Shown: positions 2,442 through 3,217 of the stretch, piece by piece
How positions within the stretch are numbered: the stretch's first letter is position 1
Layout: every line of letters begins with the position of its first letter
Source of the DNA: Escherichia coli
GTDB taxonomy: Bacteria; Pseudomonadota; Gammaproteobacteria; Enterobacterales; Enterobacteriaceae
NCBI RefSeq assembly: GCF_003334255.1
Contig: NZ_QOWU01000112.1
DNA: 3,982 nucleotides
Reading direction: 5' to 3' (one strand)
Notes under the pieces: generated by a model
Databases searched by the model: none
Seen by the model: only the letters and a program-made list of their open reading frames with translations
What the model was told of the DNA's origin: nothing
Made by a program: the position numbers and the translations under genes

Positions 2442-2864
2442 GTGGCAAAAGTTTTTACACAAGAAGAGCGGGAAAAAATTAAATGGCAGGTGGTGGAACT
2501 CGTGCGCCAGAGCGGCCGTGAGACGTTACGGCAACTGGAAGCTAAAACAGGTGCGACTAGATATCTGATGAGCGTTCTTGCCAGAGAGCTGGTAGCCAGT
2601 GGCGATGTATACAACTCCGGCTACGGGTTATTCCCCTCTGAACAGGCGCGTAAGGACTGGCAAAACGCCCGCAAAAAACTCTCGAGGGCAAAGGTGAAGA
2701 AACCTGCTGTGGTTGATCCGGACCTTATCTGGTCATCACCTGACGGAGAAATACGTCGCTACGACAGTCGCCTAAACATAATCTGTCGCGAGTGCCGGAA
2801 GAGCGAAGTTATGCAGCGCATACTGGCTTTCTATCAGGGTAATTTTCAGGACGTGGCGCAGTGA
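2442..2864 (+). CDS. Hypothetical 140-aa protein; N-terminal segment may be a winged-helix DNA-binding domain (FaeA/PapI-like pattern), basic C-terminal half
   Basis: GTG start at 2442 preceded by AAGGGGG (2431-2437). N-terminal stretch QVVELVRQSGRETLRQLEAKTGATRYLMSVLARELVASGDV has a helix-turn-helix-like pattern. Its stop overlaps the next start (GTGA). Function not recognised. Confidence 0.6.
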   Translation: MAKVFTQEEREKIKWQVVELVRQSGRETLRQLEAKTGATRYLMSVLARELVASGDVYNSGYGLFPSEQARKDWQNARKKLSRAKVKKPAVVDPDLIWSSPDGEIRRYDSRLNIICRECRKSEVMQRILAFYQGNFQDVAQ

Positions 2865-3217
2865 GTGCACCGGCAACCATTCTTGATATGTGCTGTGGCA
2901 GCCGCATGTTCTGGTTCGATAAGTCTGACGAACGGGCGATATTCAGCGATATCAGAAAAGAAGGATACACATTACGCAATGGGAGACGCTTGATTATCAG
3001 CCCTGACATTATCGCAGATTTTCGTGCATTATCATTTGCAGACGCATCTTTTTCGATGGTTGTATTAGACCCTCCGCATCTTGAGAGTGTTGGTGATAAC
3101 GCCTGGATGGGAAAGAAATATGGACGGCTGAATAAAGATGCCTGGCGTGATGATTCGCGACAGAGATTTAAAGAAGCCTTTCGGGTGTTGAGGCCGCACG
3201 GCGTTCTGATTTTTTAA
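2861..3217 (+). CDS. Amino-methyltransferase-fold protein (gamma-class-like: motif I then (D/N)PP(Y/F/H)), 118 aa, apparently truncated or minimal
   Basis: Motif I-like ILDMCCGSRMF (compare DPACGSG of N6-adenine MTases), catalytic-motif-like VVLDPPH about 60 aa later, and C-terminal AFRVLRPHGVLIF resembling the LKPGGxLxF strand of class I MTases. The ORF stops right after that strand with no continuation in any frame. GTG start overlaps the upstream stop; AGGA lies 9 nt upstream. Confidence 0.55.
   Translation: MSAPATILDMCCGSRMFWFDKSDERAIFSDIRKEGYTLRNGRRLIISPDIIADFRALSFADASFSMVVLDPPHLESVGDNAWMGKKYGRLNKDAWRDDSRQRFKEAFRVLRPHGVLIF

What the first reader, a model, noticed from the sequence alone, without database searches (positions are those of the whole stretch)
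2861..3217. Methyltransferase-fold ORF with non-canonical motifs that ends right after the fifth strand of the fold
The protein has a motif I-like DMCCGSRMF (Arg where the last Gly of GxGxG-type motifs is expected) and a DPPH variant of the (D/N/S)PP(Y/F/W) catalytic motif. It terminates immediately after RVLRPHGVLIF, so the last two strands of a class I methyltransferase fold would be missing. No reading frame continues after the stop. It is therefore a 3'-truncated remnant, a pseudogene, or a deliberately minimal, possibly non-catalytic SAM- or DNA-binding protein.
Basis: partly seen in the sequence, partly recalled or inferred. Interest (0 to 1): 0.55.

Follow-up and report, generated by a model that had tools for sequence, protein, structure and literature searches.

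The report
Decayed methyltransferase gene in Qin prophage
The 118-codon reading frame is the front three quarters of a phage methyltransferase gene killed by a stop-codon mutation and a one-base insertion in the defective Qin prophage of E. coli, so it is an ordinary pseudogene, not a deliberately minimal enzyme.

Summary
The ORF (2861-3217, GTG start, 118 aa) and both quoted motifs are real. The statement that no reading frame continues after the stop is wrong. The window is the immunity and early region of the defective prophage Qin (100% identical to E. coli W).

Intact relatives (157-175 aa, up to 90% DNA identity) have AAA (Lys) where the window has TAA (3215-3217). The homologous sequence then runs on in frame to 3292. 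An extra G in the run 3293-3295 shifts the frame, and the rest of the gene (…KTHWIIFMKEASSE) reads in the +1 frame to TAG 3348-3350.

- Lys119 is invariant in the family.
- The unusual motifs LDxCCGSR and DPPH are family hallmarks, not signs of decay.
- 122 of the 150 best representatives extend to about residue 150 or beyond.
- A confident AlphaFold model of the repaired protein (pLDDT 94) is a class I methyltransferase fold. The stop lies near the end of strand 5 and removes helix E and strands 6-7.
- The Qin allele also has replacements at conserved positions. Its downstream neighbours are pseudogenes.
- All 473 complete E. coli genomes with this allele carry TAA. None has AAA in this sequence context.
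- NCBI's own pipeline calls a 98.8%-identical allele "frameshifted; internal stop".

Verdict: a known kind of prophage decay, of low interest.

The parts
2861..3217 (+). 118-codon ORF. This is the 5' three quarters of the methyltransferase pseudogene (strands 1-5, motif I LDMCCGSR, motif IV DPPH). Its GTG start overlaps the TGA stop of the upstream DUF977 gene (GTGA, 2861-2864).
3215..3217 (+). Premature stop TAA. Four of the five relatives compared have AAA (Lys119) here, including the three intact genes and the O157:H7 pseudogene. The fifth, the other Qin allele (WAT), shares the TAA. Lys119 is invariant in the family alignment.
   Evidence: TAA exact in 473 complete E. coli genomes and no AAA version of this allele
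3218..3292 (+). Same-frame continuation after the stop, WNETQIPVSQILALTDRKPVICQRT. It is homologous to codons 120-144 of intact genes (end of strand 5, helix E, strand 6) and carries G141C at a position that is Gly in 92 of 102 representatives.
3293..3295 (+). GGG run holding a 1-base insertion. Intact relatives read ACA-GGAAAAAAC. This is the frameshift.
3305..3307 (+). Second stop (TAA) in the original frame, created by the frameshift.
3294..3350 (+). +1-frame remainder GKNDKTHWIIFMKEASSE followed by TAG 3348-3350. It is homologous to strand 7 and the C-terminus of intact genes.
2442..2864 (+). Upstream intact DUF977 (LygF) gene. The same neighbour precedes the closest intact homologue, in E. 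coli 2002-3211.
220..941 (.). dicA (220-627, minus strand) and dicC (711-941, plus strand), the immunity switch of Qin. The remnant lies about 2.1 kb downstream of dicC on the same strand, in the PR-like early operon.
   Evidence: the statement that DicA represses dicC transcription is taken from PMC10448788

Best explanation
The ORF is the 5' part of a dead gene. An ancestral Qin phage carried, downstream of its DUF977 gene in the rightward early operon, a roughly 160-aa phage methyltransferase of the 'LDxCCGSR ... DPPH ... KW' family. After the prophage became resident and defective, the gene acquired two lesions. One is a nonsense mutation at the invariant Lys119 (AAA to TAA). The other is a 1-base G insertion 78 bases further on. 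It has kept accumulating amino-acid replacements since.

What can still be translated is a 118-residue fragment that holds the SAM-binding and DPPH motifs. It lacks the invariant Lys119 and near-invariant Trp120, helix E and the last two strands of the sheet. It is most likely unstable and inactive. It lies in the dicC operon, and DicA represses dicC transcription.

Shown here: the two lesions, their fixation in the population, the family's full length, the fold, and the decayed neighbours. Inferred: that the fragment has no function and is poorly expressed.
For: (1) A DNA alignment with five relatives locates both lesions. The relatives are three intact genes, the independently inactivated O157:H7 allele and a second Qin allele.

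(2) The repaired 162-aa translation aligns end to end with relatives. 244 of 254 phage records cover at least 80% of it. There are 6694 homologues, and the 120 best listed are mostly 157-175 aa with a set near 248 aa. 122 of the 150 best 50%-identity representatives align to position 150 or beyond. Only 7 end at or before position 130, and 2 of those are this allele itself.

(3) K119 is invariant. W120, P138, T150 and K157 are at least 90% conserved. All of them lie in the lost part.

(5) Qin-lineage replacements fall at conserved positions: P58S, F69L, L99S, G102R and G141C. About 15 non-synonymous and 10 synonymous changes are specific to the Qin branch, while pairwise dN/dS among the non-Qin relatives is 0.11-0.19, apart from 0.37 for one very close pair. 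Segregating Qin variants hit invariant residues, including D30G and R108W.

(6) The downstream neighbours are pseudogenes.

(7) PGAP annotates the 98.8%-identical allele of strain WAT as a pseudogene, 'frameshifted; internal stop'.

(8) The TAA context is exact in 473 of 5426 complete genomes. When the query is repaired to AAA, the best full-length hit is only 98.3% identical, so no AAA version exists.
Against: The 118-codon frame has stayed open in hundreds of genomes. RefSeq lists it as an ordinary protein (WP_001310834.1) in most of them.

Pairwise dN/dS of Qin against the other relatives (0.16-0.27) is only modestly higher than dN/dS among those relatives, because most of the divergence predates inactivation. 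The two common Qin alleles differ by 2 non-synonymous and 4 synonymous changes, too few to test.

No expression or biochemical data were available, so a residual function such as SAM binding is not excluded.
Confidence: 0.92

Rival explanations
1. The truncated ORF has been retained as a functional minimal protein. It might be a SAM-binding or SAM-sequestering fragment, or a dominant-negative partner of intact prophage methyltransferases in the same cell.
For: Residues 1-118 contain motifs I-IV, including D9, D30, D53 and DPPH. The frame is open in at least 473 complete genomes and on more than 1000 contigs. Some genomes carry up to 5 homologous copies.
Against: The stop removes invariant K119, near-invariant W120 and the edge strands 6-7 that complete the sheet. 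Replacements at conserved core positions (P58S, F69L, L99S, G102R) lie inside the retained part. Population variants include D30G and R108W at invariant residues, an 84-aa form and an IS1 insertion. The ORF staying open is expected by chance for 118 codons over such small divergence (1.2% between the Qin alleles).
Confidence: 0.05
2. The full-length enzyme is still made by recoding, through readthrough of the UAA plus a compensating ribosomal or transcriptional slip near the G3A6 run.
For: The frameshift sits next to a homopolymer stretch (GGGAAAAAA, 3293-3301), a sequence type where slippage can occur.
Against: Two independent rare events would be needed. UAA followed by U is an efficient stop in E. 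coli (established knowledge). Intact relatives have neither feature. G141C at a 92/102-conserved Gly lies in the post-stop part, which argues against any constraint there. No stimulatory structure was sought or seen.
Confidence: 0.01
3. The stop and frameshift are sequencing or assembly errors in the source record.
For: None. This was considered only because homopolymer indels are a common error type.
Against: The identical 621-base sequence occurs in many independently finished genomes, and the TAA context is exact in 473. A second Qin allele that differs by 1.2% shares both lesions.
Confidence: 0.005

Closest known systems
Intact prophage and phage homologues. Examples: WP_001275735.1 (157 aa, E. 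coli 2002-3211), WP_000145667.1 (162 aa, O145:H28 RM12581), and the unannotated homologous ORF of Stx2c phage EH0430 (175 aa from its first ATG). Family models: PHROG 954, PADLOC MTase_II PDLC03288 and oMTase PDLC03730.
   Same: They share 84-90% DNA identity with the window, the same GTG start, the same DUF977 upstream neighbour in one case, and the same motifs LDMCCGSRMFWFDK and DPPH.
   Different: They read through Lys119 and end 39-45 residues later. The window has TAA at codon 119, a +1 G insertion, and replacements at conserved positions.
Amino-group (N-)methyltransferases of the class I fold with a (D/N/S)PP(Y/F/W) motif IV: DNA N6-adenine and N4-cytosine enzymes (M.TaqI, N6_N4_Mtase) and RNA m2G enzymes (Trm11, RsmC, RsmD-like)
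   Same: The fold is the same, with the DPPx tetrapeptide after strand 4. Database family names call the group 'DNA methyltransferase'.
   Different: The family has His in place of Tyr, Phe or Trp. The core is only about 150-160 residues with no recognisable target-recognition domain. No Pfam or NCBIfam model reaches significance and there is no PDB sequence relative. My searches turned up no experimentally characterised member, so the substrate (DNA, RNA or other) is unverified.
Other decayed genes of defective lambdoid prophages in E. coli (Qin, Rac, DLP12)
   Same: Point nonsense mutations, frameshifts and IS insertions accumulate in genes that are no longer needed. The neighbouring DUF7167 gene and the next gene are flagged as pseudogenes by PGAP.
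   Different: Nothing essential differs. The only peculiarity is that most RefSeq records still list this fragment as a normal CDS.

Membership tests
Small phage methyltransferase family (PHROG 954 / PADLOC PDLC03288) | Significant profile match | tested here: met
   The 118-aa ORF matches PHROG 954 at 6.7e-58, covering profile positions 52-165 of 229. An intact relative matches PDLC03288 at 1.5e-71.
Small phage methyltransferase family (PHROG 954 / PADLOC PDLC03288) | Motif I LDxCCG[SG][RK] and invariant DPPH after strand 4 | tested here: met
   The window has ILDMCCGSR and DPPH. In the family, D9 is present in 99, C12 in 94, G13 in 97, R/K15 in 100 and DPPH in 101-102 of 102 representatives.
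Small phage methyltransferase family (PHROG 954 / PADLOC PDLC03288) | Complete domain of about 150-160 residues, including invariant K119, W120, P138, T150 and K157 (helix E, strands 6-7) | tested here: not met
   The ORF stops at codon 119. The remainder is present only behind a stop codon and a frameshift. It is therefore a pseudogene of this family and not a functional member.
Small phage methyltransferase family (PHROG 954 / PADLOC PDLC03288) | SAM binding and methyl transfer | not testable with these tools
   No biochemical data. My searches found no characterised member.
Class I SAM-dependent methyltransferase fold | Seven-stranded Rossmann-like sheet (order 3-2-1-4-5-7-6) | tested here: met
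DNA N6-adenine / N4-cytosine methyltransferases (Pfam N6_N4_Mtase, N6_Mtase) | Significant match to the Pfam family, and a (D/N/S)PP(Y/F/W) motif | tested here: inconclusive
   No significant Pfam hit. The best is N6_N4_Mtase at E=0.0056, in a distant relative only. The motif is DPPH, with His at the aromatic position.
DNA N6-adenine / N4-cytosine methyltransferases (Pfam N6_N4_Mtase, N6_Mtase) | A target-recognition domain | tested here: not met
   The core family is 157-175 aa and the model is a bare catalytic domain. N- or C-terminal extensions in some relatives match no Pfam family.
Pseudogene (decayed prophage gene) | Disabling lesions relative to intact homologues, fixed in the lineage, with signs of relaxed constraint and decayed neighbours | tested here: met
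   Nonsense mutation plus frameshift. Fixed in all Qin-type alleles found. Replacements at conserved sites and a raised non-synonymous share on the Qin branch. Neighbouring pseudogenes. PGAP flags the WAT allele as a pseudogene.

The most novel reading that the evidence does not exclude
The 118-residue N-terminal fragment keeps every SAM-contacting motif. It could be a selectively retained, non-catalytic SAM-binding or interfering protein, produced when the DicA/DicC switch of Qin flips.

Separately, and independent of this pseudogene, its intact family is worth noting. It is a roughly 157-aa, DPPH-containing, TRD-less methyltransferase that is widespread in phages and has no significant Pfam model, no solved structure and no characterised member that I could find. 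It may not be a conventional DNA methyltransferase at all.
Probability: 0.04. Interest if true: 0.45.

Novelty: already known. Interest (0 to 1): 0.08.

Why it matters
It matters little biologically, because this is routine decay of a defective prophage.

There is a practical point. RefSeq lists the fragment as an ordinary 'class I SAM-dependent methyltransferase' (WP_001310834.1) in hundreds of E. coli genomes, while the same pipeline calls a 98.8%-identical allele a pseudogene. Methylome or defence-system surveys that count methyltransferase genes will therefore over-count.

The intact family is abundant in phages and is apparently uncharacterised. It would be a more rewarding target than this remnant.

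Tried and rejected
- Pfam and NCBIfam scans of the ORF, of an intact homologue and of two longer relatives gave only sub-threshold generic methyltransferase hits.
- Sequence search of the PDB found nothing with the single protein. The family profile found only weak class I matches.
- Literature searches for a characterised member or for this Qin gene found nothing specific.
- A promoter and terminator scan gave only consensus-level matches near chance expectation. One terminator-like hairpin at 3183-3206 just before the stop was not pursued, because the same sequence lies inside the coding region of intact homologues.
- I considered sequencing error, programmed recoding, and a missing C-terminal segment encoded elsewhere in the genome. 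All three were rejected, because the C-terminal segment sits immediately downstream and both lesions are fixed in the population.
- I did not model the 118-aa fragment alone. AlphaFold with a family alignment would reproduce the fold whatever the real stability.

Full report
**What the window is**

The window is the immunity and early region of the defective lambdoid prophage Qin of E. coli. The 621 bases around the finding are 100% identical to E. coli W, ATCC 8739 and many other finished genomes.

In E. coli W the annotated gene order is dicB, ydfC, ydfB, ydfA and dicA on one strand, and on the other dicC, a YdaT-family gene, a hypothetical protein gene (the counterpart of the gene annotated 'DNA replication protein O' in the phage-labelled record), a DUF977 gene and a 'class I SAM-dependent methyltransferase'. 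These are followed by two genes flagged as pseudogenes ('internal stop' and 'frameshifted; internal stop') and a truncated ISNCY transposase. In window coordinates: dicA 220-627 (minus strand), dicC 711-941, DUF977 2442-2864, and the ORF in question 2861-3217.

**The observation**

The ORF exists exactly as described: GTG start, 118 codons, DMCCGSRMF at residues 9-17, DPPH at 70-73, ending RVLRPHGVLIF followed by TAA. It is clearly a methyltransferase relative. It matches PHROG 954 'DNA methyltransferase' at E=6.7e-58. An intact relative matches PADLOC models MTase_II PDLC03288 (1.5e-71) and oMTase PDLC03730 (2.2e-49) over their whole length.

The same frame reads on as WNETQIPVSQILALTDRKPVICQRTGKKR*. 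The +1 frame then reads NDKTHWIIFMKEASSE*.

**The lesions**

I aligned the window with the homologous ORF of Stx2c phage EH0430 (175 aa from its first ATG), with intact genes from E. coli 2002-3211 (157 aa, also preceded by DUF977) and O145:H28 RM12581 (162 aa), with the independently inactivated O157:H7 allele, and with a second Qin allele from strain WAT. Two Qin-specific lesions appear:

- AAA to TAA at codon 119 (3215-3217).
- One extra G in the run at 3293-3295. Intact genes read ACA-GGAAAAAAC.

The insertion creates a second stop at 3305-3307. Removing one G restores the frame to TAG 3348-3350. The whole remnant therefore spans 2861-3350.

**Where homologues end**

- The repaired 162-aa translation is covered at 80% or more by 244 of 254 matching phage records, from Streptococcus, Vibrio, Acinetobacter, Listeria, Gordonia, Enterococcus and others.
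- A search of the large protein collection gives 6694 homologues. The 120 best listed are mostly 157-175 aa, with a set near 248 aa.
- Among the best 150 representatives at 50% identity, 122 align to position 150 or beyond. Only 7 end at or before position 130, and two of those are this Qin allele itself.

Full-length homologues do not end where this ORF ends.

**Motifs**

The counts out of 102 are L8 94, D9 99, C12 94, G13 97, R15 82 (K in 18), and D70, P71, P72 and H73 each 101-102.

In a 70-sequence alignment the invariant columns are D30, P48, D70, P71, P72, H73, R108 and K119. K119 is the residue turned into the stop. W120, P138, T150 and K157, each at least 90% conserved, lie in the lost part.

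**Fold**

The strands are 7-9, 26-30, an inserted hairpin at 34-46, 64-69 followed by DPPH, 110-121 (strand 5), 138-144 and 150-156. The helices are 82-87, 95-109 and 127-131.

**Relaxed constraint**

- Both Qin alleles share P58S, F69L, G102R and G141C. In the family those positions are 90, 92, 92 and 92 of 102 conserved.
- The window allele adds R76S and L99S, where position 99 is L or I in 100 of 102. The WAT allele shares the stop and frameshift but lacks these two changes, so they arose after inactivation.
- About 15 non-synonymous and 10 synonymous changes are specific to the Qin branch. Pairwise dN/dS among the non-Qin relatives is 0.11-0.19, except for 0.37 between the two closest. This is suggestive and is not a formal test.
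- Variants segregating among Qin alleles include D30G and R108W at invariant residues, an 84-aa form and truncated forms.
- One strain has an IS1 inside the remnant.

**Population**

The 60 bases around the TAA are exact in 473 of 5426 complete E. coli genomes. When the same query is repaired to AAA, the best full-length hits are 98.3% identical, which means they carry the TAA allele. No genome has the Qin-type sequence with AAA.

Rare metagenomic variants that lose the first stop (TAA to GAA, or small deletions) still end at the frameshift stop.

PGAP annotates the WAT allele as a pseudogene, 'frameshifted; internal stop', spanning the same extent I reconstructed. The window allele is listed as protein WP_001310834.1.

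**Context and expression**

The remnant lies on the dicC strand about 2.1 kb downstream of dicC. DicA and DicC form a CI/Cro-like switch, and DicA represses dicC transcription (PMC10448788, read). From this I infer that the remnant is transcribed only when the switch flips.

**Conclusion**

This is an ordinary pseudogene in a decaying prophage (confidence about 0.92). A retained function for the fragment (about 0.05) or recoding (about 0.01) cannot be formally excluded without expression and biochemical data. Nothing found here supports either.

The intact family is the more interesting object. It is a compact, DPPH-bearing methyltransferase without a target-recognition domain. It is abundant in phages, has no significant Pfam model and no solved structure, and my searches found no characterised member.

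Noticed in passing
window 2861-3350; L005 646-1090: RefSeq annotation is inconsistent. The window allele is listed as an intact CDS (WP_001310834.1) in E. coli W and many other genomes. The 98.8%-identical allele in strain WAT, with the same stop and frameshift, is flagged as a pseudogene ('frameshifted; internal stop').
   Followed up: yes
window 3480-3662 (stop at 3588-3590): The next gene (DUF7167 family) is also inactivated by an AAA to TAA change, judged against phage vB_EcoM-606R7. This is the same A-to-T transversion in a Lys codon as in the methyltransferase.
   Followed up: partly
window 3828-3982 (TAG at 3936-3938): A third ORF, overlapping the previous stop by ATGA, has an in-frame TAG where phage 606R7 has CCG. 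Between the two pseudogenes, the TAG at 3763-3765 is shared with the phage, so it is not a Qin-specific lesion.
   Followed up: partly
L008 601-1074 (E. coli O157:H7 BB24-1 and several other O157:H7 strains): An 88%-identical copy of the same methyltransferase gene in O157:H7 prophages is independently inactivated by TGG to TAG at Trp95. This gene is therefore lost recurrently in resident prophages.
   Followed up: partly
NZ_CP081711.1 2284974-2286371 (hit H7): In strain AH21 an IS1B element is inserted inside the methyltransferase remnant.
   Followed up: no
family of the intact protein (alignment A3, model madd9f9dba621): The intact family has about 6700 homologues and matches 254 phage records across Gram-positive and Gram-negative hosts. 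It has no significant Pfam or NCBIfam model and no PDB sequence relative. The model has few helices and a hairpin inserted at residues 34-46. 42 of 102 representatives carry an N-terminal extension and 23 a C-terminal extension of unknown type. Its substrate appears never to have been determined.
   Followed up: partly
L002 (PV340562.1, 'Escherichia phage PhiR42_1, complete genome'): A GenBank phage record from ECOR13 is 99.8-100% identical to this Qin region, including the dead methyltransferase, the downstream pseudogenes and transposase genes. It looks like a defective Qin prophage deposited as a phage genome.
   Followed up: no
hit H113 (PP818812.1): A record labelled Actinobacillus phage vB_Apl-pPE4 matches window 3400-3982 at 92% over its full length. 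That is unexpected for a phage of a Pasteurellaceae host, and its host label or origin may deserve a check.
   Followed up: no
L004 1115-1500 (phage vB_EcoM-606R7): In this related phage the methyltransferase gene is absent between the DUF977 (LygF) gene and the DUF7167 gene. A short opposite-strand ORF takes its place, so the methyltransferase is a mosaic, dispensable module.
   Followed up: no
window 2861-2864: The methyltransferase GTG start overlaps the DUF977 TGA stop (GTGA). The same arrangement occurs in the intact homologue of E. coli 2002-3211, which suggests translational coupling in the ancestral operon.
   Followed up: partly
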